The position numbers and the translations under genes are program-made. A stretch of DNA of 64,000 nucleotides from Candidatus Omnitrophota bacterium (GTDB lineage: Bacteria > Omnitrophota > Gorgyraeia > Pluralincolimonadales > Pluralincolimonadaceae): contig JAQUPL010000001.1 in assembly GCA_028716565.1 (NCBI GenBank), positions 19,545 to 83,544 on the forward strand, given 5' to 3'. Shown here piece by piece: positions 9,335 through 48,191 of this stretch. A model generated the notes under the pieces. That model saw only the letters and a program-made list of their open reading frames with translations. It did no database searches and was not told the origin of the DNA. Each line of letters begins with the position of its first letter. Position 1 is the first letter of the stretch.

Positions 9335-10603
9335 ATGGCAATATTCAATTACGTGGCTATCGACAAGGACGGGAAAGAGATAAAAGGCAGGCTAGAGGTC
9401 AACTCTAACGATGAGGTGGTGACCCAGCTCCGCCAAAAGGGGCTTTATCCGGTAAGCGTAAGCGAGGAGAAGTCGAAAACGCCCGCCGCCGGCGCGGTTA
9501 AAGACCTGCGTGAAAGCCCTGCCCCGGCTAATAAAGTATCTATACTGAATCTCTCGTTGGGAGGGGTCAGCCAGAAGCAGGTGACCGTTTTTACGAGGCA
9601 GCTGGCCACGCTTATCGGGTCAGGCCTTCCTCTCGTGCGCGCGCTTTACGTCCTTGAGCGCCAGGAGAAAGGGGCCCTGAAAACGACCATCCGCGGCCTG
9701 GCCGAACAGGTAGAGGGCGGCAGTTCTTTTTCCGAAGCGCTCTCGAAATATCCGAAGGCTTTCCCTCCGCTTTATGTAAATACGGTCAAGGCCGGCGAGA
9801 CCGGCGGCGTCCTTGAAGTCGTCCTGACGCGCCTGGCTGAATTCGCCGAGAAGTCACAGAAGCTGAACAGCAGGATAAAGGCCGCCCTTATATATCCCGC
9901 CCTTGTCCTGACGTTGGCGCTTTCGGTCTTATTTTTCCTGATAACTTTCATAGTCCCGAAATTCATGCAGATATTCAAAGAGATGAACGTCGAACTGCCG
10001 ACCCCGACAAAGGTGCTCCTCTTCGTCAGCAGTTTGATGAAAGACAGATGGTTTGTCGGGCTCGGGATCATTATTTTTGTCATCGTGACCTATACGATAT
10101 TGTCCAAGGTAGCGGCGACGAGGCTGGTGATCGACAGGATAAAATTGGAGCTTCCGGTAATGGGGCCGTTGATCCGCAGGATAGCCATCGCGCGTTTCTC
10201 GAGGACTCTGGGCACTTTGCTTTCGAGCGGCGTCCCCATCCTCCAGTCGCTTATGGTCGCAAAAGATACGACCGGTAACGAGGTCATGGCGCGCTCGATA
10301 GTCCATGTCCACGACAGCGTACGCGAGGGAGAGACTGTGGCCAAGCCGCTTTTAAAGGCCGGCTTGTTCCCGGCGATGGCCGTCAACATGATATCTGTCG
10401 GCGAGGAGACCGGCGCTCTCGACCAGATGCTCCTCAAGATCGCGGACGTCTATGATGAAGAGGTGGATGTCACGGTAACGGGCCTTATGTCGTTATTGGA
10501 ACCTTTCCTTATTATCGGCATGGGCCTGATCGTCGGTTTTATAGTAGTTTCGATGTTTATGCCGCTCTTCAACCTCATAACCGCATTGGGAGGGAATGGT
10601 TAA
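9335..10603 (+). CDS. gspF: type II secretion / type IV pilus platform protein (GspF/PilC family)
   Basis: Two repeated GspF domains, three TM segments and the typical RxLxTLLxSGxPLxxAL motifs (RQLATLIGSGLPLVRAL and RTLGTLLSSGVPILQSL). Length is 422 aa. Confidence 0.9.
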   Translation: MAIFNYVAIDKDGKEIKGRLEVNSNDEVVTQLRQKGLYPVSVSEEKSKTPAAGAVKDLRESPAPANKVSILNLSLGGVSQKQVTVFTRQLATLIGSGLPLVRALYVLERQEKGALKTTIRGLAEQVEGGSSFSEALSKYPKAFPPLYVNTVKAGETGGVLEVVLTRLAEFAEKSQKLNSRIKAALIYPALVLTLALSVLFFLITFIVPKFMQIFKEMNVELPTPTKVLLFVSSLMKDRWFVGLGIIIFVIVTYTILSKVAATRLVIDRIKLELPVMGPLIRRIAIARFSRTLGTLLSSGVPILQSLMVAKDTTGNEVMARSIVHVHDSVREGETVAKPLLKAGLFPAMAVNMISVGEETGALDQMLLKIADVYDEEVDVTVTGLMSLLEPFLIIGMGLIVGFIVVSMFMPLFNLITALGGNG

Positions 10604-11072
10604 AATGGAAAAACGTAAAGGCGGGTTTACGATAATAGAGTTGATAGTCGTCATGACGATCATCCTTATATTGGCTGGCCTTATAACCGGCGCCGCGCAG
10701 AAGGCGAAGCAGCAGGCTATGGTGGCCAAGGCTAGGTCGATGATCGCCGGCCTGGAGACGTCGCTTGGGATGTTCCAGGCGGATACGGGGATATATCCCG
10801 CCACCGGCAATTTGTACTCGAACCTTACCAGTTCCGCCGGCCTTACGACCGCCCAGGCTGCGAATTGGGCCGGGCCTTACATGAATTTCCAGACGAATGA
10901 AGTAAATACCGTCGCCGGCACTATACTCGACCCCTGGAACAACGCCTATCATTACGCTAATACCGGCGCGGCCGCGCACGGTTTCGATCATTACATTGAT
11001 ATCTGGTCCAACGGCCCTAACAAAGTGGACAATAGCGGCGCGGGCGACGATGTAACCAACTGGAGAAGATAG
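10596..11072 (+). CDS. gspG: major pseudopilin, GspG-type (prepilin N-terminal cleavage/methylation motif)
   Basis: KGGFTIIELIVVMTIILILAGLI (G|FTxxE prepilin motif) followed by GspG-type globular domain motifs (DTGIYP, DPWNNAYHY, NGPNK...GDDVTNW). Confidence 0.85.
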   Translation: MVKMEKRKGGFTIIELIVVMTIILILAGLITGAAQKAKQQAMVAKARSMIAGLETSLGMFQADTGIYPATGNLYSNLTSSAGLTTAQAANWAGPYMNFQTNEVNTVAGTILDPWNNAYHYANTGAAAHGFDHYIDIWSNGPNKVDNSGAGDDVTNWRR

Positions 11073-11084
11073 CTCCTTAACATC

Positions 11085-11438
11085 ATGAGAAAAGGTTTTA
11101 CGTTAATCGAGATAGTCATATCGCTCGCGATACTCGCTGTAGGGTTGGTGGGCATATTGTCGCTTTTTCCGATAGGTTTTGACTCGGCTAGGCGCTCGAT
11201 GAATTCCACGCAGGTCGCGATCTTTGCCAATGAGAAGCTCGAAGAACTGAGGAACACCGGATTTCCCTCTTTAGGCGTCACGAGCGGGGCCTTCTCCGAC
11301 GCGTCTTATGCGTGGTCGCAGAGCGTTTCAACCGTAGACGCGATCGACGCATTAAGGAAGGTGGATCTGACGGTAACCTGGGAATACAGGAGCCGCCCTT
11401 ACCAGCAGGTATTCACGACCTATGTGGCGACCAGATAG
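11085..11438 (+). CDS. minor pseudopilin, GspI-like (prepilin-type N-terminal methylation motif)
   Basis: MRKGFTLIEIVISLAILAVGLVGILSLFP. Length is 117 aa, typical of GspI. Confidence 0.65.
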   Translation: MRKGFTLIEIVISLAILAVGLVGILSLFPIGFDSARRSMNSTQVAIFANEKLEELRNTGFPSLGVTSGAFSDASYAWSQSVSTVDAIDALRKVDLTVTWEYRSRPYQQVFTTYVATR

Positions 11439-12198
11439 ATATATAAGAAGGAATAGCTCCGGCCTGACCTTGGTCGAGATCCTCGTCGTGGCCGTCATCT
11501 TCTCCATACTAGTTACCTCCCTGTTTACGGTCTTCAGGGGCGGGCTCGATTCCTGGCACAAGGCCGAGACGATCCTAGATATGTACCAGAACGCTAGGTT
11601 CGCGCTCGACATAATGGAGAGGGAGATAGCCTCCGCCTGCCTCTACCAGGAAAGCTCCAACACCGCATACTGGACTAAATTCGAGGGTTATCGTTATCCC
11701 TCCGTGTCCGGCCTAAAGACCGGCTCCGCAGGCGACGAGATCTTTTTCGTCGCGCCGATAGCGAATAATTCGGCCAAGCAGGACCTATGCGAAGCCGGAT
11801 ATTGGCTCAGGAACGATAACCGCCTCATGCACCATTTCGAGTATTTCGACGGAAGCGTAGTGCCGGTTGCCTATGATTTTTCAAAGAAGGCCGACGGTTC
11901 CGCGGATACCGGGGCATCCGATACCACAGTCGCCCGCAATGTCACGGCTTTGCAGTTTACTTATTATTACAGGCATGCGGCCGCCGCCGCGCCGGATTTC
12001 GATACTCCGGCATTGCATACATGGAATTCCGGATCGGATAATCCGGGAGGAAGGGCCGAGAACTACGATTCGGACGGAAACGCTAAGAATCCCGACGGCT
12101 TGCCTGACGCGGTGGAAATATCCATAACGCTGCAGAGCAAGGACGGCAGCCAGACAAAGACCTTTACGGATTTCATAAGGATCGTAGGTGCGAGATGA
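11422..12198 (+). CDS. minor pseudopilin, GspJ-like (prepilin-type N-terminal methylation motif)
   Basis: SGLTLVEILVVAVIFSILVTSLFTVF prepilin motif with a larger globular domain. The start overlaps the previous gene. Confidence 0.6.
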   Translation: MWRPDRYIRRNSSGLTLVEILVVAVIFSILVTSLFTVFRGGLDSWHKAETILDMYQNARFALDIMEREIASACLYQESSNTAYWTKFEGYRYPSVSGLKTGSAGDEIFFVAPIANNSAKQDLCEAGYWLRNDNRLMHHFEYFDGSVVPVAYDFSKKADGSADTGASDTTVARNVTALQFTYYYRHAAAAAPDFDTPALHTWNSGSDNPGGRAENYDSDGNAKNPDGLPDAVEISITLQSKDGSQTKTFTDFIRIVGAR

Positions 12199-15173
12199 AA
12201 GAGACTAGCCCCAAATACAAAAAGAAGAGAGGCGTAGCCCTCATAATCTCGGTGGGCATCCTGGCGCTCATCGCGATGATAGCCACGAGTTTCGCTATAA
12301 ACATGCAGATCGAGTATAGGGCCGCGGCGAATTTTATGTATTATACCGTAGCTAAAGAGCTATCCGGCGCGGGCCTTGATAAGACGATTGCCGATATCCG
12401 GGCTTTGGCGGCAAACAACAGTTACGACGACGTCATGACTACCATAAATGCATCTCCTTACGCCGACCCGGGGACCGAGGTGAATTTAGCGGAGGGAAGC
12501 TATCAGGTCTATGTGGAGCGGGAGGACCAGAAGATAAACATAAACGCCCTTGATGAGACCGATTATCCGTGGATAGATGAGTTGAAAAGCAAGGGCCTTT
12601 CATACGATGACATCGCGAAGATAATCAATTATCGCGTTCCGGAGACGGAGTATAGCAGTATCACCTCTGTATTGACCGCCACCGGCCCTCAGTCCTGTAA
12701 CAGCGGCACCATCCAGAAGCACGGGCCTTACGCAACAGTCGAAGAATTGCGGCTTGTCCTTAACGACGACGTCAAATATAATGCCATAAAAGACTTCGTT
12801 ACCGTCTATGCCCCGGTGATACCGGGAGGGCTTACCGGTAAGTATTACTCCCAACCCGATAATACGGTGTGGGATAAAAACTCGATCCTGGGCCTTGGTA
12901 ATTTTTGCGGCAAAGTCGTGGAATTTCGCGCCCTTAAAGAGGCGAAGGACTCCGGTTCAGACCCCTGGCCTCCTTCCGGGACGTTCCCGGGCGCCGACGG
13001 GGATTGGAACGGATGGAGCGAGGCGCACGACGCGGAATTTGCGGGGGGTTATATAGCCGCTGACTGGACGTGGCGGTCGGGATTGGATTATTTCGGCGCG
13101 GTATTCACCGGCTATATATACATACCTCAGGATAAGGTAAATCAGGATATAACCTTCAAGATGCGCAGCGAGAACGGCTGCAGGCTTTTTATAGACGGGA
13201 CAAAATTGATCGAAGATTGGACCGACAGGAACATGGGCGGCTGGCCGTCAGATAATGTCCTTGTCGCTCCGGTTGTTGTCTTCAGCCGCGCCGGCTGGCA
13301 CTCGATAAGGGTCGAATACTACAACAAAGAGAACCAAAATACGGTCCAGCTTAAATGGGACGCCTACGGTTCTGATGATTACGTTCCGGCCGAATACTTC
13401 GGATATAATCCCTCTTCTTTTTACGGGGATATCGCGGTCGACTCGAACCCGGTGACGACGCCTAAGACATACAGGGCTGCCTCCAGGCTCGGGACGGATT
13501 ATAACTCGGCCGGTATCCTGAAGATAGTCTCTACAGGGAAGACGAAAAAGAACGGAGTCGTCGTAGCCGAAAAGAAGACGGCCTCGGTCATCCAGGTCTT
13601 TAATACCCTTACGCAATCGACGCGGGCGGAATTTTGGGCGCCGTGGTTCTCGCTCTACAACAATTTCAGCGATGGGGAGGTAAGGAACGTGACCTGGCTC
13701 GATTCGTGTCCGACCAGCCAGGATGGTTTCGACGGCAGCAAGATGAATTGGGAGGGGAATTACACGACCACCCCCGATTCCGTCAAGCTCGGATACTGGG
13801 ATAACTTCAACGACGATATTGCCTACACCGCGATAATATTGAAGGGGGGATATGTAACGAAGTTATTCGGTATAGCGTGGTGGGATTGGGATGTTCACAC
13901 ATTTCCCAGCACCCATGAACACTGGCTTCCTAGGGGAAGAATAGACGGTGAAGATGCAACTGCTATAAATTGGGACGGCGATTATGTGTGGCCCTGCACT
14001 TTCGGCGATTTTTCCGTCCCGGAAGGGTTCAAGGAAGATGGCATTAATGGCACGTATTGCCTCAGAATGGATGTACCGGGATATTATTACGATGGATGCA
14101 GGGCTGAGGAAAGGCAAGCTGAATTAAACAGTTATTACTACAAAGCAGACTCGCCGTTGGGCTACGATATCTTCGCCAGGTCTTATGTCTATGACAACGG
14201 ACAGAAGCAGACATGGGACAGCAACTGGCAACGGCCTCCAAGCCAGCGCTTGGCTAATCCGGGATATGCCTCCCATATTCCGTCATTTTTGACGGGGTAT
14301 CTCATCCTCAAGACCGATCCGCCGTATACAACTGACCATCAGACAAAACCCGGAGACGTTTATTATACTTTTGTCCAAAACGGGACCGACTGGTTCGGTT
14401 CCTCCGACTCGGATGCGAGCGTAATATATTGTCCAGGCAAGACAGACTCGACAGTCGGCGCCTGTTATTCCTGGAATGAGGATACGCAACAGACGCAGTA
14501 CTACATATTAGCGGCGATAGGGGTGGGAACCACGTATAAGGCTTATTATTCCTATACTACTCAGGATGGTTCCGGTTGGGTCACCACGGGAGCATCCGGA
14601 ACAGGCAGCGCGTCTAAAGCAGGTGTCGTAGCATTCCGGGCAAACAATATATATTATGTCGATCTCGACTTATTCTGGCAGGGGGACCCTCCCTACACCA
14701 ATGAAGTATTCGTCGATATGGTATACGACAGGACTGACGGGATCACCGACAATAACCCCAGATATATTGGCAGCACCAGCGAATGCGTGACCGACTTCGA
14801 TAACGTCAGGGTCATATATCCAAAGGGTTATATAGTATCCGCGCCGCTTATAGCTAAGCCTCCTTCGGATAACGCCAATATAATATGGGATACGATAACG
14901 TGGAATGATGCGAACCCGAATCCTGCCAATACCTCAATAACGATGTATGCCAGGGCGGCCGACACCCCTTCCGCAAGCGATGATTTCTCGACTGAATACT
15001 CCAAAGGGGACTCATTGTCATCCCTTTCAGGCGGTAAGTTCCAGTATAAGGCTTTATTGGGCACGACAGCGTTGAACCCTAATGACTATTCGGCCAGCAG
15101 CTCCACGCCTGTCCTGAAGGGCGTCACCGTGATGTACCACCGGCCGAAAGCCCGGGTATTTTACCAGCAGTAG
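12195..15173 (+). CDS. giant GspK-like pseudopilin (992 aa) with internal PA14 domain and long C-terminal extension
   Basis: GspK-type N-terminus (KKKRGVALIISVGILALIAMIATSFAINMQ) and a GspK-like helical region (QKININALDE...TVEELRLVLNDD). A PA14-like segment lies at about nt 12825-13370 (TGKYYSQP...FTGYIYIPQD...FKMRSENGCRLFIDG...HSIRVEYYNKEN...LKWDAYG), followed by about 600 aa of W/Y-rich sequence. Confidence 0.65.
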   Translation: MKETSPKYKKKRGVALIISVGILALIAMIATSFAINMQIEYRAAANFMYYTVAKELSGAGLDKTIADIRALAANNSYDDVMTTINASPYADPGTEVNLAEGSYQVYVEREDQKININALDETDYPWIDELKSKGLSYDDIAKIINYRVPETEYSSITSVLTATGPQSCNSGTIQKHGPYATVEELRLVLNDDVKYNAIKDFVTVYAPVIPGGLTGKYYSQPDNTVWDKNSILGLGNFCGKVVEFRALKEAKDSGSDPWPPSGTFPGADGDWNGWSEAHDAEFAGGYIAADWTWRSGLDYFGAVFTGYIYIPQDKVNQDITFKMRSENGCRLFIDGTKLIEDWTDRNMGGWPSDNVLVAPVVVFSRAGWHSIRVEYYNKENQNTVQLKWDAYGSDDYVPAEYFGYNPSSFYGDIAVDSNPVTTPKTYRAASRLGTDYNSAGILKIVSTGKTKKNGVVVAEKKTASVIQVFNTLTQSTRAEFWAPWFSLYNNFSDGEVRNVTWLDSCPTSQDGFDGSKMNWEGNYTTTPDSVKLGYWDNFNDDIAYTAIILKGGYVTKLFGIAWWDWDVHTFPSTHEHWLPRGRIDGEDATAINWDGDYVWPCTFGDFSVPEGFKEDGINGTYCLRMDVPGYYYDGCRAEERQAELNSYYYKADSPLGYDIFARSYVYDNGQKQTWDSNWQRPPSQRLANPGYASHIPSFLTGYLILKTDPPYTTDHQTKPGDVYYTFVQNGTDWFGSSDSDASVIYCPGKTDSTVGACYSWNEDTQQTQYYILAAIGVGTTYKAYYSYTTQDGSGWVTTGASGTGSASKAGVVAFRANNIYYVDLDLFWQGDPPYTNEVFVDMVYDRTDGITDNNPRYIGSTSECVTDFDNVRVIYPKGYIVSAPLIAKPPSDNANIIWDTITWNDANPNPANTSITMYARAADTPSASDDFSTEYSKGDSLSSLSGGKFQYKALLGTTALNPNDYSASSSTPVLKGVTVMYHRPKARVFYQQ

Positions 15174-15183
15174 GGATAACAAT

Positions 15184-16053
15184 ATGAAAAAAATAATCGC
15201 GTTCTCCGTCATCCTGTTTTTAAGCTTATGCCTGCGGGCCTCTGCCGCTCCCGGGGATAAATACGCGATAAGGGTGCCGGGGGACTGTAAGACCATCAGG
15301 GAAGCGTGCGAGAAGTCCTTTCCGGGCGATACCATATACATAGGCGCAGGCGAATACACGGAGAAAGAGGGATTTACCGTTAAGAGTAATATCAAGCTTG
15401 TCGGGCAGGGCGCCGACAAGACCCTTATCAAACTTGGAAAGAGCGGATTATCCATAATCTCATCGCGCGGGAGCGTGAATAACGTTGCCATAAAAGACCT
15501 CTCCATAGAGGTCAACGGGCAGCCCTTAAGGGTTAGTGGCGTCGACAGTTTTCTTTTAAAGGACTGTGTCTTAATAAGCAGGAACCTGTCTACCTGCATA
15601 GAGGTCAGCGGCGTAAAGAACGCGCAGATATTGAACTGCGATATAGTGAACGCAAGTTACGGCCTGATGCTTTGGGGCGGGCCGATCGAGCTTGTCGTAA
15701 GGAATTCGGTCTTTTACAACAATAAGGTCGGTATCTGCTCCGCCAAACTTCCGCCGCCGGGGAATCCCCGGGACCTGCCTAAAGGATATCTGGAAGAATA
15801 TTATAATAAGCCGCGCGAGGACATCAGCCTTACGCTTAGCTACAACCTTTTTTATAACCTGAAGGATTTTTTGGATTGCCGGAAAGGGGAGAAGGACATA
15901 TTGCTGGATCCCAGGTTCGCGAATGCCGCGAAAGACGATTTTCACCTTAGGGGAGATTCCCCCTGTGTTGATGGCGGCGACCCGGACGCCAAGTATAACG
16001 ACCCAGACGGCTCAAGGAACGACATCGGGGCTCTCCCATTTGCCGGAAAATAA
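15184..16053 (+). CDS. secreted right-handed parallel beta-helix (pectin-lyase-fold) repeat protein
   Basis: Signal peptide (MKKIIAFSVILFLSLCLRASAAP) and PbH1-like repeats (NVAIKDLSIEVNG, LKDCVLISRN, NCDIVNASYGLMLWGG, VRNSVFYNNKVGI). Confidence 0.55.
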   Translation: MKKIIAFSVILFLSLCLRASAAPGDKYAIRVPGDCKTIREACEKSFPGDTIYIGAGEYTEKEGFTVKSNIKLVGQGADKTLIKLGKSGLSIISSRGSVNNVAIKDLSIEVNGQPLRVSGVDSFLLKDCVLISRNLSTCIEVSGVKNAQILNCDIVNASYGLMLWGGPIELVVRNSVFYNNKVGICSAKLPPPGNPRDLPKGYLEEYYNKPREDISLTLSYNLFYNLKDFLDCRKGEKDILLDPRFANAAKDDFHLRGDSPCVDGGDPDAKYNDPDGSRNDIGALPFAGK

Positions 16054-16113
16054 TAAAATTACCAGGAAGCGGAGTTGTTTTTATGTCAGCTACCCTCGCG
16101 GGCATACGAGAAA

Positions 16114-18681
16114 ATGAAAATAAGAATAAGAAAAAATAACAAGGGTATCGCCCTCATAGTGACGGTCGGCGTCCTCGCGATGATGCTGATAATCGGGACA
16201 TCTTTCACCATCAATATGATGGCCGATCACAGGTCGTCGGTGAATATGGCGATGGCGGCGCAGGCCAGGGCCGCGGCAGAGGCGGGATTGAATATCGCTA
16301 TCGTATCGGCGAGGAACCTGGCCGTCAGCGATTTCAACGGCGTGCCTGCCGCTACCATGAGCGGCTCTCTCGGGAACGTGGGGAGGGGGAATACCGCCGC
16401 CTATTCCGTCAATATAACCGATACCGCGAGCCAGCTCAACGTAAACGACACAAATCCCGGGTTGGAAGATATGCTCGAAAGCCTTGTTGCCATACTGGGA
16501 AGCCCTCTTCAGGCCGGCGACGGGACCGCGATTATTTCATACCGCTCGACCCTCACGGGCGGAGTTTATATCACAAAGGAACAGGTTACCGACGCGTTTT
16601 CCGGCACAACCTCCGTAAAACAGGCCAAGTTCAACAAGATAGCGGAATATGTGACGGTAAATGGTTATATAGACGAGAACAGCGAGGATTCTACGGCCTC
16701 GTCTTTTACAGGCCTGGATAATCCTAACTCGACTTACCAGCGCAAGGCGCCGGTAAATATAAATAAAGCGGACGCTAAAGTGCTTAGGGCTGTTTTAGCG
16801 CCTGTCATTACGCCGACAGATCCTGCCACGTTAGCCGGTGATATTATTACAAGAAGAAACACGAATTTCTTTACCAGTTGGAATGATTTTGACGGTTTTA
16901 TAGACGGCCTTGGTTACCTGACCGCCGCTGAAAAAATAAAAATAAAAAATAACGCGAATCCGAATAAAGTAAAAGTTGATAGCGTGGGAGTCCCCCTCTC
17001 TTATACAACTGATTTTTGCTTCCATCCCGGCGGCGTTTACGAGATAACATCTACCGGGACGGCCGGACCGGCCCAGAAACGGATAACCGCTCTCGTGCGG
17101 ATATATGATGTCATAAATTACACGACGAAAGAGCAGTTCAGGGGAGATACTTACACGGTCATCCCTGCCGTATATGATGGCACATTGCCGATTTTTAAGA
17201 ACGTAAATTGGCTTAACAGCTGTCCGGTTACCTCCGATTACGACAATGGATTGGAGGTCGACCCGCCAAACTACAGCACTAACGCCATCGCTAATTCCCT
17301 TAAACTGGGTTTCTGGGATAACTTTGATGAAGATAATGATAATGTCAGTAAAACAGGATGGAGCTGGCGGAATTGGCAAGATTCCAGTCCCGATGGTCAT
17401 GATATAGTAATAACTGATGTTAATCCCGTGTATCCTAACCCCCCCGGTGCCCATGGTCCTCAACCTAATTTAACGGATGGCGATAACGAATTGAGCGATG
17501 ACGCATCTTATGGACCGACGGCGTTGGCTTATCTAGATTTACGGGGCACTCAAAGCGGACAGTGGAATTGCAATCAGGAATTCTCCCTGAGAGTCTATTG
17601 TAATGTTCTTAAAAATCCTCCGCCTCAGGCTGGCTATCCTCTTGCTAATAATTATTATGACAGCAATGACCGCTGGGAGGGTTATGAGGATACTGAGCAG
17701 ATAGACTTCGTTCCTGCGGGCCAGACGGGCCAGATATATATCAGTAACTTTCGTTGTGTGTACTTTGGGGACTACGGGTCCAGGGCAATCATCGATGGAA
17801 TAGGGTACGACGTACCCGGCGATTTTATAGATTCCATGTTAAGATTGAATTTCTACGGCGGCGGTGGTGACCATTATATGTACTTAAACAAGGACATGGA
17901 CGGCAACTACATGTATTCTTCGATAGGCGACGTGTCTCCTTTACATACACTGGTTCCGGCGGATGCGAACAGGATAGTTCCTATTAATGCTACTTTCAGG
18001 TTGATTGTACATGGGGCAGCAGACAACAATTATCAGATTTATCTGGCAGTTTCCCCCACCGGGATCGCTTATCATGAATGGCCGGACTCAACGAACGCTC
18101 AGGCTGGGATATGTGAGGCTGACGGAGGGGCATGGATTCCCTGGCTTTGGCAGATTCATTATCTTATCTACAATGCCGTTGACAAAAACTATCATCAATT
18201 TGTCGATACGGGAGCGGATGACAGATATGGCTATATGGAGTCGCAGTTTTGGCATGACCAAACAGCAAACAGATTTATATATACTGATTGGTATTTGAGA
18301 TTAATTAACCATCCGTCCACGATTTACGGACGTTACGCTTTATTCGATGAAGTCCGCTTGATCCCTGACCAGGGCTATTACATTTCTCCCGCGTCCACCA
18401 CGGCAAGTAACGGGCGCTTTGGCACCGCGTCGTGGACTTTGGCTATCCCGCCGGGCGCAGTTACTAATGAAAGGGCTGCGGTGGAAATTTCCAGAGACGG
18501 GGGGGCTAGCTTTAGTCCGGTAAATATCAACGGTGGCGCGAATATCGATCCTTCGACGACCATGTGTTTCAAAGTCACTTTATTATCGGACGACCCGCAG
18601 CATTTACAGACGCCTGTCCTTGAGGACATTACTCTTACCCGTTTGCCAAAGGTAGCGGTCTTATATTGCAAATATGAGTAA
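16114..18681 (+). CDS. second giant GspK-like pseudopilin (about 855 aa)
   Basis: N-terminus MKIRIRKNNKGIALIVTVGVLAMMLIIGTSFTINM and GspK-like motifs (SQLNVNDTNPG, PVNINKADAKVLRAVLAPV). The C-terminal about 600 aa are W/Y/N/D-rich. The ORF is open from 16075; the ATG at 16114 is preferred by analogy with the first GspK-like gene. Confidence 0.6.
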   Translation: MKIRIRKNNKGIALIVTVGVLAMMLIIGTSFTINMMADHRSSVNMAMAAQARAAAEAGLNIAIVSARNLAVSDFNGVPAATMSGSLGNVGRGNTAAYSVNITDTASQLNVNDTNPGLEDMLESLVAILGSPLQAGDGTAIISYRSTLTGGVYITKEQVTDAFSGTTSVKQAKFNKIAEYVTVNGYIDENSEDSTASSFTGLDNPNSTYQRKAPVNINKADAKVLRAVLAPVITPTDPATLAGDIITRRNTNFFTSWNDFDGFIDGLGYLTAAEKIKIKNNANPNKVKVDSVGVPLSYTTDFCFHPGGVYEITSTGTAGPAQKRITALVRIYDVINYTTKEQFRGDTYTVIPAVYDGTLPIFKNVNWLNSCPVTSDYDNGLEVDPPNYSTNAIANSLKLGFWDNFDEDNDNVSKTGWSWRNWQDSSPDGHDIVITDVNPVYPNPPGAHGPQPNLTDGDNELSDDASYGPTALAYLDLRGTQSGQWNCNQEFSLRVYCNVLKNPPPQAGYPLANNYYDSNDRWEGYEDTEQIDFVPAGQTGQIYISNFRCVYFGDYGSRAIIDGIGYDVPGDFIDSMLRLNFYGGGGDHYMYLNKDMDGNYMYSSIGDVSPLHTLVPADANRIVPINATFRLIVHGAADNNYQIYLAVSPTGIAYHEWPDSTNAQAGICEADGGAWIPWLWQIHYLIYNAVDKNYHQFVDTGADDRYGYMESQFWHDQTANRFIYTDWYLRLINHPSTIYGRYALFDEVRLIPDQGYYISPASTTASNGRFGTASWTLAIPPGAVTNERAAVEISRDGGASFSPVNINGGANIDPSTTMCFKVTLLSDDPQHLQTPVLEDITLTRLPKVAVLYCKYE

Positions 18682-18700
18682 AAGGAGAAAAAAGAATAAA

Positions 18701-19780
18701 ATGAGACAGGTGTTTCCCGTATTTTTTTTGATGTTCTTTTTGGCCGCGGCTTTTCCGGCCACGGCAGCCGATGTTAGCCAGCCGGAAGCACTTGATGAAT
18801 CCGTAGGCCATCCGGATGCCCTTGGCGAATTCAACAAAAGATTTTCGGAGATAAAGGCAGGTGATGCCGCGGCTTATTATAATTTGGCGGTGTACTGTCT
18901 AGATAACGATCTCCCGGAACAAGCGGAATACCTGCTCGGTGAAGCAGCTAAAGATCCATCTTTTGAAAAAAGGGCGAAAAGACTTCTCGAAGTGCTTACA
19001 GGTGAACCGGACAAGTCTTATTATGAATCCGCGTTTAAGCACTATGAATCGGGGTATCTTGCGGAGGCTAAAGCAGAGATCGAAATGCTAAAAGCCTCTT
19101 ATCCCAAAAGCCATTATATTCGTAAAGCGAGGTCTCTTCTGAAAAAGATTGACAAGGAAGCGCTTGATAAACCTTATCTTTTGACGAATTCCGCCGATCC
19201 CGGTAAAATTATTGCTTCTTTGAATCAGAGCGCGGAAAAAGAGGAAGGCAATGCGGAGGAATTGAAAAAGGAATATCTTACGGATATCCTCAAGAAGGCT
19301 GAGTATTTCGCGGATGTTATGGCAGCCAAAGCTCCTTCCAAGGGAAAAAAGGAAGAATATTTATTCTATGCGATAAAATGCGCGGAAAAAGTATCCGGAT
19401 TGTCGGATGACGCTGAATTAAAAAATAAAGCCGGGGATCTGAGAGGCAAGATCACCAAGCAATTATTTGTTGAACACCCGGTATCCGAAGATTTGAAAAA
19501 TATAGACAGCTATTATGAGAAGTTATACTTGGTCAAAGATAGTGGTTTTGTCGAGGATGTATGCGGCAAATATACCAAGACGGGAGAGGAATATTTAAAG
19601 AAAGCCCGGAAGGCCTCGGGCGCTGAAAAAATAAGTAATCTTGTTAGCGCCTATAGATGTTTCTCGTTTGCCAATGCCTATACGAAGTCCGAGAAGATGA
19701 AACAGGAGACTTTTCAAAAGATGGAGCTTATTAATGCCGAAAAAAGGAAGGAGATAAGCAAGAAGAAAACGTCAAATTAG
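18701..19780 (+). CDS. secreted lysine-rich helical/TPR-like protein of unknown function within the secretion locus
   Basis: Signal peptide MRQVFPVFFLMFFLAAAFPATAA. The mature part is K/E/A/Y-rich with TPR-like pairs. An AAGGAG RBS lies upstream of the ATG at 18701; the ORF is open from 18674. Confidence 0.45.
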   Translation: MRQVFPVFFLMFFLAAAFPATAADVSQPEALDESVGHPDALGEFNKRFSEIKAGDAAAYYNLAVYCLDNDLPEQAEYLLGEAAKDPSFEKRAKRLLEVLTGEPDKSYYESAFKHYESGYLAEAKAEIEMLKASYPKSHYIRKARSLLKKIDKEALDKPYLLTNSADPGKIIASLNQSAEKEEGNAEELKKEYLTDILKKAEYFADVMAAKAPSKGKKEEYLFYAIKCAEKVSGLSDDAELKNKAGDLRGKITKQLFVEHPVSEDLKNIDSYYEKLYLVKDSGFVEDVCGKYTKTGEEYLKKARKASGAEKISNLVSAYRCFSFANAYTKSEKMKQETFQKMELINAEKRKEISKKKTSN

Positions 19781-19817
19781 GCGCCCATCGAATTTTTTGC
19801 TTTTTGAAAAGAAATAA

Positions 19818-19846
19818 TTGACAACATTTGCTTAATCCTATAAAAT
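19818..19846 (+). promoter_or_regulatory. putative sigma70-type promoter upstream of the PilM-PilN fusion gene
   Basis: TTGACA (19818-19823), a 17-nt spacer and TAAAAT (19841-19846) in one of the few real intergenic gaps (19781-19858). Confidence 0.45.
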
Positions 19847-19858
19847 ATACGCAACCAT

Positions 19859-21508
19859 ATGGGAAAACGTGCTCTAGGGATCGATATAGGCGCGGGCTCG
19901 GTAAAACTCGTAGAGCTGGAAAAGACGGTTGAGGGCATTCAGCTCATCCGGGCGAAATTTTTTGATTTGACCCAATATGCCGACCAGGAAAAAAGGGACA
20001 CCCTGATCAGGGAAGGCATAGAGGGGTTGTTGAGAACAGAAAAGATAAAGAGCGGCAGGCTCGCGCTCTCCCTCTCGGGCCAGTCGGTATTCATCCGCTT
20101 CCTCAAGCTCCCCAAGATCCAGCAAGGCAAGATAGACAAGATAATAAAATACGAAGCACAGCAGCAGATCCCTTTTCCCCTCGATAAGATAAGCTGGGAC
20201 CACCAGATCTTCCGCTCCGGCGCGGGCCCGGAAGAGGACGTCCTTTTCGTCGCCGCGAAAAAAGAGATCGTCGAAACTACGCTTTCGCACGTAGCGAGGA
20301 CCAACCTGGACATAGAGTTCGTCGATGTCAGCCCGCTGGCCCTCCTTAACGCCATAACTTACAATGAGCCCCTCGGCAAGGGACTGATCCTTGATATCGG
20401 CGCCAAGGCGACCAATCTTATCGTCATCTCGGACAAGGGGTTCTGGGTCCGTTCGATACTTATCGCCGGCGACGAGATGACCCATGCTATCGCCTCAAAG
20501 TTAAATATACCTTTCGACAAGGCGGAAGAGCTTAAGCGCAAAGAGGGGATGGTGGTCGCATCAGACAGCCTTGTTCCCTCGAACATCACCCCGGCCGGCA
20601 AAGACCTCGTTAATGCCCTGAACCCGGTCGTCTCCGACCTGATATCTTCGATAGTCCAGTCGATGGAATTTTACAGGACCAAACATGCCCGCGATACCGC
20701 CTTCAACGAGATCATATTATCGGGCGGCGGCTCAAAGCTCAAGGGCATAGAGGATTTCCTGGCGAAGGGGCTCGGCATGCAGATAAGGCGCGCCAACCTG
20801 GGCCAGAAGATAAAATGCCCGTCCAACCTCAGGGTCGATATAGATTTCCAGACACGCTTCGGCTCTTCGATCGGCCTGGCCCTGCGCCTGCTCCAGAGAT
20901 GCCCGACCAATATAGACCTGTTGCCGGTCGAGAGGAAAGAGGAAAGAGATTTCAAGAAAGAAAAATTCTGGATCATCTCTGCGGGCCTCCTTATCGCCGT
21001 GATACCGCTCACGATAGGGTATAATATCTGGTTCCAGACGTCGACCCTAAGGAAGGAAGTGGCCTTCCTGGATTCGCTTTTGTCGGATTACGAGAACATC
21101 AACAAGGAAATAGCCAAGCTTAAGGAAGATATAAAGAACAGCGAGGCAAGGCTGGAACCTTTTGAAAATCTGGCCATAAAGAAAAGCCTCTCGCTTGAGG
21201 CCATATTGGGGATAAGGAAGCTCCTACCCGAAGAGACCTGGTTGACGTCGGTCTCCAAGGAGAAGGACTTCTTCTCGCTGGAAGGCAGGACGGCCTCGAG
21301 CCTCCTGACCATAAACGATTTCAAGAACAGGCTCGCATCCTCGCCGTTATTCGATTCGGTAGAGATAATATACGCGAGCCTGCCCCGCCAGACCGAAGAG
21401 GGCGCGGGACAATTCAGGGATTTTTCCATAAAGTTCAGGTTCAAGGGGACCGGCGCGGCTGCGGCGGCCCCGAAGGGCGAGAAGGACGAAACGAAAGGCA
21501 ATAAATAG
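19859..21508 (+). CDS. PilM-PilN fusion (GspL-like): actin-like ATPase-fold cytoplasmic domain + TM + periplasmic coiled-coil domain
   Basis: PilM N-terminus (LGIDIGAGSVKLVELEK) and actin-like fold, then a TM segment (FWIISAGLLIAVIPLTIGYNIWF), then a PilN/GspL-like coiled coil. Length is 549 aa. Confidence 0.75.
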   Translation: MGKRALGIDIGAGSVKLVELEKTVEGIQLIRAKFFDLTQYADQEKRDTLIREGIEGLLRTEKIKSGRLALSLSGQSVFIRFLKLPKIQQGKIDKIIKYEAQQQIPFPLDKISWDHQIFRSGAGPEEDVLFVAAKKEIVETTLSHVARTNLDIEFVDVSPLALLNAITYNEPLGKGLILDIGAKATNLIVISDKGFWVRSILIAGDEMTHAIASKLNIPFDKAEELKRKEGMVVASDSLVPSNITPAGKDLVNALNPVVSDLISSIVQSMEFYRTKHARDTAFNEIILSGGGSKLKGIEDFLAKGLGMQIRRANLGQKIKCPSNLRVDIDFQTRFGSSIGLALRLLQRCPTNIDLLPVERKEERDFKKEKFWIISAGLLIAVIPLTIGYNIWFQTSTLRKEVAFLDSLLSDYENINKEIAKLKEDIKNSEARLEPFENLAIKKSLSLEAILGIRKLLPEETWLTSVSKEKDFFSLEGRTASSLLTINDFKNRLASSPLFDSVEIIYASLPRQTEEGAGQFRDFSIKFRFKGTGAAAAAPKGEKDETKGNK

Positions 21509-45239: not shown

Positions 45240-45241
45240 AG

Positions 45242-48065: not shown

Positions 48066-48191
48066 GAGATAAAGATCGTCTTTCTGAAGAATATCCCTAT
48101 AAAGATACCGGCGGACCTCGTCCTCTCGCGCCTCAAATTCGCTAAATATAAGACAAAGGCGGACAAGAAGATATTCGCGTTCATCTCCTGC

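What the first reader, a model, noticed from the sequence alone, without database searches (positions are those of the whole stretch)
12195..18681. Two giant GspK-like pseudopilins (992 and about 855 aa), one with a PA14 adhesin-type domain
Canonical GspK is about 330 aa. Both of these proteins begin with the GspK-type basic-hydrophobic N-terminus (KKKRGVALIISVGILALIAMIATSF; KNNKGIALIVTVGVLAMMLIIGTSF) and carry the GspK helical NINa/NINKA motifs. They then continue for 500-650 extra residues that are rich in W/Y/D/N. The first carries a PA14-like domain (nt about 12825-13370; FTGYIYIPQD...FKMRSENGCRLFIDG...SIRVEYYNKEN), a fold associated with carbohydrate binding and adhesion. Because GspK caps the pseudopilus tip, these extensions would be displayed at the filament tip, as expected for an adhesive or host-contact function.
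Basis: partly seen in the sequence, partly recalled or inferred. Interest (0 to 1): 0.75.

Follow-up and report, generated by a model that had tools for sequence, protein, structure and literature searches.

The report
Giant lectin-headed pilus tip proteins

Summary
ORF 12195-15173 (K1, 992 aa) and ORF 16114-18681 (K2, 855 aa from ATG; 868 aa from an upstream TTG) are intact genes. They are conserved across Omnitrophota and are identical in two independent assemblies.

The roughly 510-residue C-terminal extensions of K1 and K2 are homologous. Each is a concanavalin-A-like jelly roll with a hypervariable middle, followed by a conserved beta-sandwich and a terminal motif TPVLEDITITYLPxxxVLY. No glycoside hydrolase family 16 (GH16) catalytic motif is present, and the canonical PA14 Ca/sugar "DcisD" pair is E-N here.

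The surrounding machine is a PVC-type type IV pilus/T2SS hybrid.

The most likely role is as alternative pilus tip caps that present glycan- or cell-surface-binding heads. This function is inferred, not shown. Modular pilins, including PA14-bearing ones, and PilK-class proteins with large insertions (CpaL, ComZ) are already described, so this is a new variant of a known kind. Interest is moderate.

The parts
5832..7541 (+). PilB/GspE-type assembly ATPase 1, with an MshEN domain
   Evidence: Pfam T2SSE E 7.9e-142 and MshEN E 6.7e-14. TIGR02538 PilB 631 bits and TIGR02533 GspE 625 bits, both just below their cutoffs.
7543..9279 (+). PilB/GspE-type assembly ATPase 2, with an MshE-type c-di-GMP-binding motif
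   Evidence: TIGR02533 GspE 648 bits, above the cutoff of 630. NF053729 c-di-GMP motif E 1.1e-18. 46 % identical to ATPase 1.
9335..10603 (+). PilC/GspF platform protein
   Evidence: Pfam T2SSF E 6.4e-62, two repeats.
10596..11072 (+). GspG-like major (pseudo)pilin, G|FTIIE with Glu5
   Evidence: Pfam T2SSG E 1.1e-13 and N_methyl. TIGR01710 E 5.9e-19, 68 bits, below the cutoff of 88.85.
11085..11438 (+). GspI/PilV-like minor pilin (117 aa), G|FTLIE
   Evidence: TIGR01707 gspI E 1.6e-7. Verru_Chthon cassette protein B E 5.7e-8. N_methyl.
11422..12198 (+). GspJ-like minor pilin (258 aa), G|LTLVE. Its stop codon overlaps the K1 start (ATGA).
   Evidence: N_methyl E 1.1e-6, weak T2SSJ and gspJ matches, Verru_Chthon cassette protein C E 1.2e-6. 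Overlap read.
12195..15173 (+). K1: giant GspK/PilK-class tip pilin, 992 aa, about 109 kDa mature
12195..12809 (+). K1 aa 1-205: leader ending in G13, hydrophobic alpha-1 helix without Glu5, first two pilin strands and a GspK-type helical (HhH) alpha-domain with KININA
12810..13409 (+). K1 aa about 206-405: PA14 domain inserted into the GspK core (boundaries approximate)
13500..13628 (+). K1 aa 436-478: the last three strands of the pilin beta-sheet
   Evidence: AF2 strands 441-452, 455-467 and 470-474. Aligns to K2 aa 299-345.
13629..14834 (+). K1 aa about 479-880: ConA-like lectin/glucanase-fold jelly roll with large variable insertions. It starts at NVTWLDSCP...KLGYWDNF and ends at FDNVRVIYP (boundaries approximate).
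14835..15170 (+). K1 aa about 881-992: conserved C-terminal beta-sandwich and terminal strand (TPVLKGVTVMYHRPKARVFYQQ)
   Evidence: AF2 pLDDT 85-94. Motif conserved in both families. The same module is found in other surface proteins.
15184..16053 (+). Exported right-handed beta-helix protein (289 aa), regularly found directly downstream of K1-type genes in the main operons
   Evidence: Pfam Beta_helix E 4.7e-6. Sec-type signal read from the sequence. Follows K1 in L001-L008, L010-L013, L023 and L024; no beta-helix hit follows K1 in L009 or L015.
16114..18681 (+). K2: giant GspK/PilK-class tip pilin, 855 aa, about 92 kDa mature. An alternative TTG start lies at 16075.
16114..17133 (+). K2 aa 1-340: complete GspK-fold core. 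It comprises a leader ending in G11, alpha-1 without Glu5, a beta-hairpin, an enlarged alpha-domain with two HhH blocks (LNVND, VNINKA) and three closing strands.
17134..18384 (+). K2 aa about 341-757: ConA-like jelly roll with variable insertions, from NVNWLNSCP...KLGFWDNFDED to FDEVRLIP (boundaries approximate)
18385..18678 (+). K2 aa about 758-855: conserved C-terminal beta-sandwich and terminal strand (TPVLEDITLTRLPKVAVLYCKYE)
18674..19780 (+). Exported helical/TPR-like protein (368 aa), often found downstream of K2-type genes
   Evidence: Weak TPR_19 match only. The K2+TPR368 pair is duplicated as a unit in L002 and L005 and is present in L001, L003, L006, L008, L038, L045 and L050; several K2-only loci (for example L025-L027, L029, L039, L044, L049) show no TPR368 hit.
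19859..21508 (+). PilM-PilN fusion (Amuc_1101-like)
   Evidence: Pfam PilM_2 E 4.4e-34 and PilN E 2.7e-7. NF045709 E 3e-81 and TIGR01175 142 bits, above its cutoff.
21512..22947 (+). Two genes (253 and 225 aa) in the PilO and PilP positions, without family matches
   Evidence: No Pfam or NCBIfam hit. Conserved synteny.
22953..24080 (+). TPR protein with a weak STN-like C-terminus, upstream of the secretins
   Evidence: Pfam TPR_2 E 1.1e-7 and STN E 2.6e-3.
24077..26298 (+). Two tandem short secretins (373 and 367 aa, 44 % identical)
   Evidence: Pfam Secretin E 2.9e-39 and 3.9e-43. Similar to GspD, Amuc_1098, MshL and PilQ, all below their cutoffs. Paralogy.

Best explanation
K1 and K2 are paralogous minor pilins of the GspK/PilK (PilX) class. 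This class forms the apical subunit of the priming and tip complex of type IV filaments.

Inferred sequence of events:
1. Each protein is inserted in the inner membrane by its class-III-type N-terminus.
2. Prepilin peptidase cleaves after the conserved Gly (G13|VALII in K1, G11|IALIV in K2).
3. The protein joins the co-encoded GspI-like and GspJ-like pilins to form the initiation complex.
4. The GspG-like major pilin is polymerised under that complex by the PilB/GspE ATPases, the PilC/GspF platform and the PilMN-O-P complex.
5. The filament passes through the secretin pair.

Both proteins lack Glu5 and sit in the K position, so each would end up at the extreme tip, one copy per filament. With a single I-J pair in the operon, K1 and K2 are most simply alternative caps.

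Grafted onto the GspK core are three kinds of non-pilin module:
- A PA14 domain inserted in the alpha-domain region (K1 only).
- A concanavalin-A-like beta-jelly-roll of about 400 residues whose central loops are the most variable part of the family.
- A conserved beta-sandwich of about 100 residues that ends in a nearly invariant terminal strand.

The filament would therefore carry a head of roughly 60-80 kDa, aromatic-rich and lectin-like. Its most likely job is to bind glycans or cell-envelope structures of a partner or prey cell, or polysaccharide particles. This fits the proposed host-attached lifestyle of ultra-small Omnitrophota.

Shown here: gene integrity, family conservation, homology of K1 and K2, GspK fold, PA14 fold, ConA-like fold, operon context and the variability pattern.

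Inferred only: processing, tip location, alternation of the two caps, ligand class, and whether the filament is extended and retracted.
For: N-termini: the sequence reads K/R-G|(V/I)AL followed by about 20 hydrophobic residues with no Glu at +5. The G, I and J proteins have G|F/L-T-x-I/V-E.

GspK profile: E 2.5e-9 and 1.4e-7. Pfam T2SSK matches 32 of 39 K2-family members, with a best E of 2.3e-10.

Paralogy: K1 and K2 families align at hhalign probability 100 %, E 1.3e-72, over core plus the start of the extension. They share the terminal motif.

Synteny: the order E1-E2-F-G-I-J-K(-BH)(-K2-TPR)-PilMN-O-P-TPR-Sec-Sec recurs in Omnitrophota MAGs. A giant K gene always comes directly after J. Some loci carry K1 only, K2 only or K1+K2+K2, which fits interchangeable caps. 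Accessory I-J-K-K-K clusters exist in the same genomes (L014: 964, 1041 and 1027 aa).

PA14.

Variability: the extension middle is 28-32 % identical against 42-62 % for all other regions. W/Y/D enrichment is shown.

No PilY1-type protein is present in the operon, so the adhesin role would fall to the K proteins.

A PilT gene lies inside the homologous operon of more distant Omnitrophota (L050, TIGR01420 E 1e-127), which argues for a real, retractile pilus ancestry.

Literature:
- GspK caps the pseudopilus as a GspI-J-K trimer, and modular pilins, including PA14- and ConA-lectin-bearing ones, act as tip adhesins (PMC8179133, PMC9934059).
- PilK-class proteins with large insertions before a C-terminal donor strand (CpaL, ComZ) replace PilY1 (PMC13533445).
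- Omnitrophota T4aP loci are proposed to mediate host attachment (PMC10066038).
Against: Neither protein reaches the curated GspK cutoffs: 37 and 31 bits against 130 for NF037980, and 15.1 against 24.2 for Pfam T2SSK in K2.

The Ca/sugar-binding DcisD pair of the lectin-type PA14 domains is E326-N327 here and variable in the family, so sugar binding by the Flo/Epa/MpIBP mode is doubtful.

The ConA-like fold is shared by lectins, glycoside hydrolases, lyases and pure protein-binding modules, so the ligand class is open.

The major pilin is GspG-like and this operon has no PilT, so a short periplasmic pseudopilus (T2SS mode) cannot be excluded.

No expression, processing or localisation data exist. 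No prepilin peptidase gene is in the window.

Structural statements rest on AF2 models with mean pLDDT about 77 and several low-confidence loops in the extension.
Confidence: 0.6

Rival explanations
1. The machine is a type II secretion system. K1 and K2 would cap a short periplasmic pseudopilus, and their lectin-like heads would dock cargo and push it through the secretin rather than mediate adhesion. The cargo could be the co-encoded exported beta-helix protein, other glycan-active enzymes or glycosylated proteins.
For: The major pilin is GspG-type (Pfam T2SSG E 1e-13, TIGR01710 E 6e-19).

The second ATPase passes the GspE equivalog cutoff.

There is no PilT in this operon or window.

K1 is regularly followed by an exported beta-helix protein, and K2 often by an exported TPR-like protein.

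GspK-I-J tips are thought to contact substrates and the secretin (general T2SS knowledge; PMC13533445 discussion).
Against: The alignment proteins are of the PilM/PilN type (Amuc_1101-like), and no GspC or GspL/M profile matches.

Homologous operons in other Omnitrophota contain PilT.

A 60-80 kDa head permanently attached to the piston would compete with cargo for the secretin vestibule.

The hypervariable head and the multiple alternative K genes per genome resemble receptor-binding diversification more than docking of a conserved cargo.
Confidence: 0.2
2. The tip head is catalytic. The ConA-like/GH16-like jelly roll, possibly working with the beta-helix partner, would cut polysaccharide of a prey or host cell wall or S-layer at the point of pilus contact.

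For: The adjacent gene encodes a pectate-lyase-like right-handed beta-helix protein.

Omnitrophota giant proteins and pilus loci have been linked to cell-wall degradation (bioRxiv 10.1101/2023.11.21.568195 and 10.64898/2026.06.07.730766).
Against: The GH16 catalytic motif E-x-D-x(-x)-E is absent from K1 and K2. It is found in 1 of 24 and 0 of 39 family members.

No glycoside hydrolase or lyase profile matches.

Lectin matches score as high as enzyme matches.

The invariant residues (C, P, K, G, W, D, R) look structural.
Confidence: 0.08
3. The K2-type cap is a DNA receptor. Its enlarged helix-hairpin-helix alpha-domain would bind extracellular DNA for uptake, either for competence or for nucleotide scavenging. 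The extension would have a structural role.
For: The K2-family profile hits the ComEA HhH DNA-binding domain (8dfk, E 2.7e-4).

Thirteen of 39 members hit Pfam HHH_3, with a best E of 2.7e-12.

One homologue is named ComE-like by JGI.

Tip pilins ComZ and others bind DNA (PMC6561018, PMC12153270).
Against: The HhH-like alpha-domain is a generic feature of all GspK proteins, including those of T2SS, which have no DNA role (Pfam T2SSK; PMC8179133).

This reading does not explain the conserved 500-aa lectin-like extension or the PA14 paralogue.

No ComEC, DprA or ComEA gene was seen in the operon.
Confidence: 0.07
4. K1 and K2 are not filament subunits at all. They would be membrane-anchored or released surface adhesins that merely retain a pilin-like signal anchor.
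For: They do not match the N_methyl/IPR012902 motif. Nothing here demonstrates incorporation into a filament.
Against: The full GspK fold is retained, not only the N-terminal helix.

The position directly after I and J, with translational coupling (ATGA overlap), is invariant.

Lack of the N_methyl match and of Glu5 is normal for GspK.
Confidence: 0.05

Closest known systems
GspK / XcpX, the T2SS minor pseudopilin K (PDB 3CI0 chain K, 5VTM chain X; NF037980, PF03934/PF21687)
   Different: The proteins are 2.6-3 times larger. A lectin-like extension of about 510 residues is added after the last core strand. K1 also has a PA14 domain in the alpha-domain region. Sequence scores fall below the curated cutoffs. 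The host machine has PilM/N-type, not GspL/M/C-type, components.
CpaL/TadG (Tad pili), ComZ (Thermus competence pilus) and the V. cholerae competence PilK homologue: PilK-class proteins with a large insertion before a C-terminal donor strand (PMC13533445, PMC6561018)
   Same: The core is K-like. A several-hundred-residue non-pilin module follows, and then a short conserved C-terminal strand. No separate PilY1 is present. The presumed role is as tip adhesin or receptor.
   Different: The inserted modules differ: vWA-type or beta-solenoid there, ConA-like jelly roll plus beta-sandwich (plus PA14) here. The proteins here also keep the GspK alpha-domain. Docking of the terminal strand in cis was not testable here.
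Modular type IV pilins of Streptococcus sanguinis, PilB (vWA) and PilC (ConA-like lectin), and the database survey of modular pilins that includes PA14 architectures (PMC8179133, PMC9934059)
   Same: A pilin module carries a grafted binding module. A ConA-like lectin module and a PA14 module are both among the known grafts. Glycan binding at the pilus tip was demonstrated for the PilA-PilC complex.
   Different: Those are small conventional pilins with a Glu5/N_methyl motif and one C-terminal module. Here the carrier is the GspK-class cap itself and bears two or three modules. One module (PA14) is inserted within the core. The proteins come from a diderm candidate phylum.
PilC/PilY1 and MshQ tip adhesins (PMC13533445, PMC7541494)
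   Same: They are large tip-displayed adhesins of about 100 kDa with variable N-terminal modules. Several alternative sets occur per genome, as in Myxococcus.
   Different: PilY1 is a separate non-pilin protein with a beta-propeller that donates a strand to PilK in trans. Here no beta-propeller is present and the adhesin-like modules are covalently part of the K pilin.
Verru_Chthon cassette protein A (TIGR02600, model length 1296) with cassette proteins B, C and D
   Same: It is a giant protein with a K-like N-terminus encoded next to I-like (B) and J-like (C) pseudopilins in PVC-group bacteria. The I and J proteins here give their best or near-best hits to cassette proteins B and C.
   Different: Only the first 64 residues of the model match (21.8 bits against a cutoff of 332). 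The rest of the protein is unrelated at sequence level. That family is functionally uncharacterised.
PA14 carbohydrate-binding domains: RsgI3, MpIBP, LapA-type RTX adhesins and the yeast Flo, Epa and Cea adhesins
   Different: The DcisD Ca/sugar site is replaced by E-N here (E-D in about half of the family). The domain is inserted in a pilin.

Membership tests
GspK (T2SS minor pseudopilin K) | Class-III-type N-terminus: Gly at -1 and a hydrophobic alpha-1 helix without Glu5 | tested here: met
   K1 reads KKKRG|VALIISVG and K2 reads KNNKG|IALIVTVG. This is conserved in both families. The G, I and J proteins have Glu5.
GspK (T2SS minor pseudopilin K) | Score above the curated profile cutoffs (NF037980 130 bits; Pfam T2SSK 24.2 bits) | tested here: not met
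   NF037980 gives 37.1 bits for K1 and 31.4 bits for K2. Pfam T2SSK gives 15.1 bits for K2. E-values are nevertheless 1e-7 to 1e-9, and 32 of 39 K2-family members hit T2SSK at E <= 0.01.
GspK (T2SS minor pseudopilin K) | Fold: pilin beta-sheet with an inserted helical alpha-domain | tested here: met
GspK (T2SS minor pseudopilin K) | Gene order gspI-gspJ-gspK | tested here: met
   The window order is 11085-11438 (I), 11422-12198 (J), 12195-15173 (K1). Every fetched locus that retains I and J shows the same order.
GspK (T2SS minor pseudopilin K) | Forms the apical subunit of a GspI-J-K heterotrimer | not testable with these tools
   No complex prediction or coordinate access was available.
GspK (T2SS minor pseudopilin K) | Belongs to a canonical T2SS (GspC, GspL, GspM, long GspD) | tested here: not met
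   The operon has a PilM_2+PilN fusion, unassigned O and P positions and two short secretins, with no GspC, L or M match. PilT is present in the homologous operon L050.
PA14 domain (PF07691) | Pfam score above the gathering threshold | tested here: met
   34.8 bits against 24, at aa 297-392. All 24 of 24 family members match.
PA14 domain (PF07691) | PA14 beta-barrel fold | tested here: met
PA14 lectin subgroup (Flo, Epa, MpIBP) | DcisD pair that coordinates Ca2+ and sugar (motif position taken from my knowledge of Flo5; alignment) | tested here: not met
   The equivalent residues are E326-N327. The family columns read E/D/K/R/N and D/N/Q/H/E.
Modular type IV pilins (Raynaud et al. 2021) | Pilin module plus at least one domain not specific to pilus biology | tested here: met
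   The proteins have a GspK core plus PA14, a ConA-like domain and a beta-sandwich.
Modular type IV pilins (Raynaud et al. 2021) | N-terminal IPR012902/N_methyl motif, which was used to define the survey set | tested here: not met
   Pfam N_methyl is not reported for K1 or K2 although it is found in G, I and J. These proteins would therefore have escaped that survey.
PilK-class with a large insertion and a cis donor strand (CpaL, ComZ type) | The extreme C-terminal strand completes the K-core beta-sheet | tested here: inconclusive
   The terminal motif LPxxxVLY is conserved in both families. MI-APC covariation on 93 sequences (Neff 64) ranks windows starting at 838-847 within the top 15 of 278 for partners in the pilin core, but this is confounded by phylogeny and conservation.
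Verru_Chthon cassette protein A (TIGR02600) | Score above the cutoff of 332.3 bits over the full-length model | tested here: not met
   21.8 bits (K1) and 11.6 bits (K2), matching the N-terminal 59-64 residues only.
PilC/PilY1 tip adhesin | C-terminal PilY1 beta-propeller (PF05567) | tested here: not met
   No such Pfam hit occurs in K1, K2 or any operon protein.
Glycoside hydrolase family 16 / ConA-like glucanases | Jelly-roll fold | tested here: met
Glycoside hydrolase family 16 / ConA-like glucanases | Catalytic E-x-D-x(-x)-E strand motif | tested here: not met
   The regex is absent in K1 and K2 and matches 1 of 24 and 0 of 39 family members. No GH16 Pfam hit was found.

The most novel reading that the evidence does not exclude
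Omnitrophota nanobacteria have merged the pilus cap (PilK/GspK) and the tip adhesin (the PilY1 role) into a single polypeptide of about 100 kDa. Its hypervariable ConA-like head would act like a phage receptor-binding protein. Several interchangeable K genes per genome (K1, K2 and accessory I-J-K-K-K clusters) would set which host or prey cells are recognised. The invariant terminal strand LPxxxVLY would fold back in cis to license pilus assembly. On this reading the K repertoire would be a readable predictor of host range in an uncultured, host-dependent phylum.
Probability: 0.3. Interest if true: 0.7.

Novelty: new variant of a known kind. Interest (0 to 1): 0.5.

Why it matters
Omnitrophota are ultra-small, uncultured bacteria suspected of living on other cells, and their type IV pilus loci have been proposed as the attachment device (PMC10066038). 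No specific host-recognition component has been named.

These giant K-class pilins are the obvious candidates, for four reasons:
- They occupy the one position that is guaranteed to be at the filament tip.
- They carry lectin-type modules.
- Their head is the fastest-diverging part of the operon.
- They occur in one to three or more alternative copies per genome.

They also give the type IV filament field a natural, extreme case of a K subunit carrying both the GspK alpha-domain and a C-terminal insertion of about 510 residues. That is useful for testing the recent model in which beta-strand addition licenses assembly.

The general principle of modular tip pilins, PA14-bearing ones included, is already established. 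Databases already label these proteins "GspK" or "PA14 domain-containing". The advance is therefore in architecture, distribution and biological context, not in kind.

Tried and rejected
1. Assembly chimera or frameshift artefact. Rejected. Full-length co-linear homologues are found in many independent assemblies, and the identical K1 with the same neighbours occurs in two NCBI assemblies.

2. TTG start at 16075 (868 aa). Considered. The ATG at 16114 is preferred because homologues begin at MKIRIRKNNKG and NCBI aa. The mature protein is the same either way.

3. Canonical lectin-type PA14. Rejected as a certainty, because the DcisD pair is not conserved.

4. GH16-type enzyme. The catalytic motif is absent.

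5. PilY1-like protein or membership of Verru_Chthon cassette A. The profile tests fail.

6. Mobile element or island. The operon lies between larC-like and polA housekeeping genes and is syntenic across the phylum. GC is, however, lower over 16-20 kb.

7. Profile search of PDB for GspK by sequence. This gave only E 0.3-0.9. The fold comparison was needed.

8. Foldseek against PDB with the whole K1 model returned essentially only PA14 hits and was uninformative for the other domains.

9. The afdb50 fold library was unavailable.

10. Covariation (MI-APC) test of whether the terminal strand contacts the pilin core. There were too few sequences (Neff 64). The signal is suggestive but confounded and is treated as inconclusive.

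11. Literature searches for giant GspK or PilX proteins in PVC or Omnitrophota found nothing specific.

Full report
**1. What is in the sequence**

The stretch 12195-18681 holds three plus-strand genes. They are a 992-aa ORF from ATG 12195 (K1), a 289-aa ORF (15184-16053), and an ORF ending at 18681 (K2). K2 is 868 aa from TTG 16075 or 855 aa from ATG 16114.

Close homologues begin at the ATG-equivalent MKIRIRKNNKG, and NCBI's own call in a sister assembly is 855 aa. The ATG start is therefore preferred.

The extensions are enriched in W (2.7-3.7 %), Y (7-8 %) and D (9.3 %), against 0.4, 2.5 and 5.5 % in other proteins of the window.

Both ORFs are real genes and not assembly artefacts:
- K1 has 24 strong full-length homologues and K2 about 44, all from Omnitrophota-type MAGs of many independent projects.
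- A scan of species-representative genomes found 50 loci.
- The identical K1 with identical neighbours occurs in GCA_028714115.1 and GCA_028711645.1.

**2. Context**

The genes sit in a 20-kb operon (5832-26298) flanked by a larC-like gene and polA. The gene order is:
- two PilB/GspE-type ATPases, the second with an MshE-type c-di-GMP-binding motif
- a PilC/GspF platform protein
- a GspG-type major pilin
- a GspI-like pilin of 117 aa
- a GspJ-like pilin of 258 aa
- K1
- an exported beta-helix protein
- K2
- an exported TPR-like protein
- a PilM-PilN fusion resembling the Akkermansia Amuc_1101 family
- two unassigned genes in the PilO and PilP positions
- a TPR/STN-like protein
- two tandem short secretins

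G, I and J have the canonical G|(F/L)TxIE N-terminus with Glu5. K1 (G|VALII) and K2 (G|IALIV) lack Glu5, which is typical of the cap subunit. J's stop codon overlaps K1's start (ATGA), which suggests translational coupling.

The same operon order recurs across Omnitrophota, and a giant K gene always comes directly after J (tblastn map):
- Some lineages have K1 plus the beta-helix gene only.
- Many have a K2-type gene only.
- Some have K1-BH-K2-TPR-K2-TPR.
- Several genomes carry a second, machinery-less cluster I-J-K-K-K. L014 is an example, with ORFs of 964, 1041 and 1027 aa.

In more distant loci a bona fide PilT gene lies between the two assembly ATPases (L050: TIGR01420 E 1e-127). The window itself has no PilT. 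The machine is therefore best described as a PVC-type type IV filament with mixed T4aP and T2SS features. This agrees with the "T4aP" calls made for Omnitrophota by Seymour et al. (PMC10066038), who did not discuss the minor pilins.

**3. Are they GspK-like?**

By sequence:
- NCBIfam GspK (NF037980) matches K1 aa 12-205 (E 2.5e-9) and K2 (E 1.4e-7). Both are well below the curated cutoff of 130 bits.
- Pfam T2SSK is marginal in K2 itself (E 0.03) but matches 32 of 39 family members, with a best E of 2.3e-10. PilX_N matches 19 members and HHH_3 matches 13.
- The K1 and K2 families are unmistakably homologous to each other (hhalign probability 100 %, E 1.3e-72). The match runs from the N-terminus through the pilin core into the start of the extension.

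Together with the N-terminus and the I-J-K synteny, the GspK/PilK-class assignment is solid. Strict membership of the curated T2SS GspK equivalog is not met.

**4. The added modules**

*(a) PA14 (K1 only).* The evidence for the domain is:
- Pfam gives 34.8 bits against a gathering score of 24, and all 24 of 24 family members match.
- The family profile hits the tandem PA14 domains of RsgI3 at E about 1e-18.

The hhalign alignment shows that the PA14 domain (about aa 206-405) occupies the place where K2 has its second HhH block. It lies inside the GspK core, before the last three core strands.

The DcisD pair binds Ca2+ and sugar in Flo, Epa and MpIBP. The motif position is taken from my knowledge of Flo5 and aligns to the DD of RsgI3. 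Here it is E326-N327, and it varies across the family. The fold is certain. The canonical lectin mechanism is not.

*(b) The C-terminal extension.* It spans K1 aa about 479-992 and K2 aa about 341-855. It has no Pfam match but is homologous between the two proteins at both ends:
- The start reads NVTWL(D/N)SCP...KLG(Y/F)WDNF.
- The end reads (F/W)D(N/E)VR(V/L)I(Y)P...TPVL(K/E)(G/D)(V/I)T(V/L)...LPxxxV(F/L)Y.

The last roughly 100 residues form a separate, confidently modelled beta-sandwich.

An exhaustive profile search of 1.84 billion representative proteins with the extension found only 336 relatives at E <= 1e-3 and 69 at E <= 1e-30. Nearly all are 650-1040 aa long and have a K-type N-terminus. 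The exceptions share only the final beta-sandwich. In several of them scanned with Pfam, a partial GH16-like match lies N-terminal to that sandwich. They are very large Ig-rich surface proteins of other phyla, for example a 2708-aa Gemmataceae protein. The extension is thus a grafted surface-protein module that has become almost exclusively associated with K pilins.

Within both families the middle of the jelly roll is by far the most variable region. It is 32 % and 28 % identical within the K1 and K2 families, against 42-62 % for every other region.

**5. Most likely mechanism**

Established knowledge of GspK/PilK (crystal GspI-J-K and XcpV-W-X trimers; PMC8179133; PMC13533445) places this subunit at the apex of the initiation complex and hence at the filament tip.

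Applied here, K1 and K2 would be processed after G13 and G11. Each would join the single I-J pair, prime polymerisation of the GspG-like pilin, and end up as the sole apical subunit. Because there is one I-J pair, the two are probably alternative caps.

Their mature masses are 109 and 92 kDa. A head of roughly 60-80 kDa built from lectin-type folds would project from the tip. The following features are what one expects of a receptor-binding device that replaces PilY1:
- the aromatic-rich composition
- the hypervariable central loops
- the multiplicity of alternative K genes
- the absence of any PilY1-type protein in the operon

I put about 0.9 on the K-class identity, about 0.7 on tip display and about 0.5 on glycan or cell-surface adhesion as the function. 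The overall confidence is 0.6.

Ellison et al. (PMC13533445) recently showed that the last beta-strand of the K sheet is supplied in trans by PilY1 or in cis by GspK. They noted that CpaL, ComZ and the V. cholerae competence K homologue have large insertions before that donor strand. The near-invariant terminal LPxxxVLY of both families fits that picture. I could not inspect model coordinates, and a covariation test was underpowered and confounded. This point stays a hypothesis.

**6. Rivals**

- *T2SS-type piston whose head docks cargo (about 0.2).* It is favoured by the GspG-type pilin, the GspE-scoring ATPase, the lack of PilT in this operon and the exported proteins (beta-helix after K1, TPR-like after K2) that regularly follow the K genes. 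It is disfavoured by the PilM/N-type components, PilT in homologous operons and the pattern of head diversification.
- *Catalytic head (about 0.08).* It is supported by fold neighbours and the beta-helix partner, but no catalytic motif or enzyme profile is present.
- *DNA receptor through the HhH alpha-domain (about 0.07).* It is supported by the ComEA hit (E 2.7e-4), but HhH motifs are generic to GspK, and this reading leaves the extension unexplained.
- *Not a filament subunit (about 0.05).* It is contradicted by the complete GspK fold and the invariant I-J-K coupling.

**7. Comparison with what is known, and novelty**

Modular pilins are well documented. In S. sanguinis, PilB carries a vWA module and PilC carries a ConA-like lectin that binds glycans. 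A database survey already lists PA14 among the frequent modules (PMC8179133, PMC9934059).

K-class proteins with big insertions (CpaL/TadG, ComZ) and large tip adhesins (PilY1, MshQ) are also known. TIGRFAMs has long catalogued an uncharacterised giant K-like "Verru_Chthon cassette protein A" next to I- and J-like proteins in PVC bacteria. The proteins here match only its first roughly 60 residues.

NCBI already names K2 relatives "GspK" and K1 relatives "PA14 domain-containing protein".

What appears undescribed:
- the specific architecture: GspK core with alpha-domain, an optional intra-core PA14, a ConA-like jelly roll, a beta-sandwich and a conserved terminal strand
- its phylum-wide conservation in Omnitrophota
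- the paralogue sets and accessory clusters
- the recurrent neighbouring genes for exported proteins (a beta-helix gene after K1, a TPR-like gene after K2)

I therefore rate it a new variant of a known kind, with moderate interest (0.5). Its value is mainly as a concrete candidate for host recognition in an uncultured, host-dependent phylum and as a natural test case for the tip-licensing model.

Noticed in passing
window 24077-25198 and 25195-26298 (plus 22953-24080): Two tandem short secretin paralogues (373 and 367 aa, 44 % identical) each carry only one N-domain. They are preceded by a TPR protein with a weak STN-like C-terminus. A double short secretin is unusual and is conserved across the Omnitrophota loci.
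   Followed up: partly
window 5832-7541 and 7543-9279; L050:1962-3029: Two tandem PilB/GspE-type ATPases are 46 % identical, and the second carries an MshE-type c-di-GMP-binding motif. In more distant Omnitrophota loci (L029, L039, L046, L050) a third, shorter ATPase-like match lies between them; in L050 it is a 355-aa PilT-family protein (TIGR01420 E 1e-127). PilT is missing from this window.
   Followed up: partly
window 19859-21508: A PilM-PilN fusion protein matches the Akkermansia Amuc_1101 family best (E 3e-81), and the secretins resemble the Amuc_1098 family. This links the machine to the PVC-type pilus locus that also encodes Amuc_1100.
   Followed up: no
window 15184-16053 and 18674-19780; L002, L005: Each giant K gene often has a neighbouring gene for an exported protein. 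K1 is regularly followed by a right-handed beta-helix protein, and K2 often by a TPR-like protein of about 365 aa. The K2+TPR pair is duplicated as a unit in L002 and L005. The role of these proteins (chaperone, tip-associated factor or cargo) is unknown.
   Followed up: partly
L014 (UBA6215 contig DISH01000006.1), also L018, L019: Accessory clusters lacking assembly genes encode I, J and three giant K-like proteins (964, 1041 and 1027 aa in L014). They lie in genomes that also carry the main operon, and in UBA6215 on the same contig. This is reminiscent of the multiple minor-pilin/PilY1 sets of Myxococcus.
   Followed up: partly
window 16001-20000: GC content falls to 0.485 and then 0.445 over K2 and the TPR-like gene, against about 0.53 for the window. 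This may reflect faster turnover or exchange of this cassette.
   Followed up: no
P0137 (2708 aa, Gemmataceae), P0183 (5142 aa), P0182, P0189, P0190: The final beta-sandwich of about 110 aa from the K extension also occurs in very large Ig-rich surface proteins of other phyla. It is sometimes repeated, and in several of those scanned with Pfam a partial GH16-like match lies N-terminal to it. It has no Pfam family.
   Followed up: partly
window 43560-51126: A gene cluster encodes the methyl branch of the Wood-Ljungdahl pathway: formate-THF ligase, cyclodeaminase-like protein, FolD, MTHFR with its C-terminal partner, and a MetH-like B12 methyltransferase. This is consistent with acetogenic Omnitrophota.
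   Followed up: no
window 3006-3539: A 177-aa protein fuses a bactofilin domain to a C-terminal HTH_17 DNA-binding domain, which is an odd combination.
   Followed up: no
window 41486-43513 and 54225-55301: ORFs of 675 aa and 358 aa have no Pfam match at E <= 1e-5.
   Followed up: no
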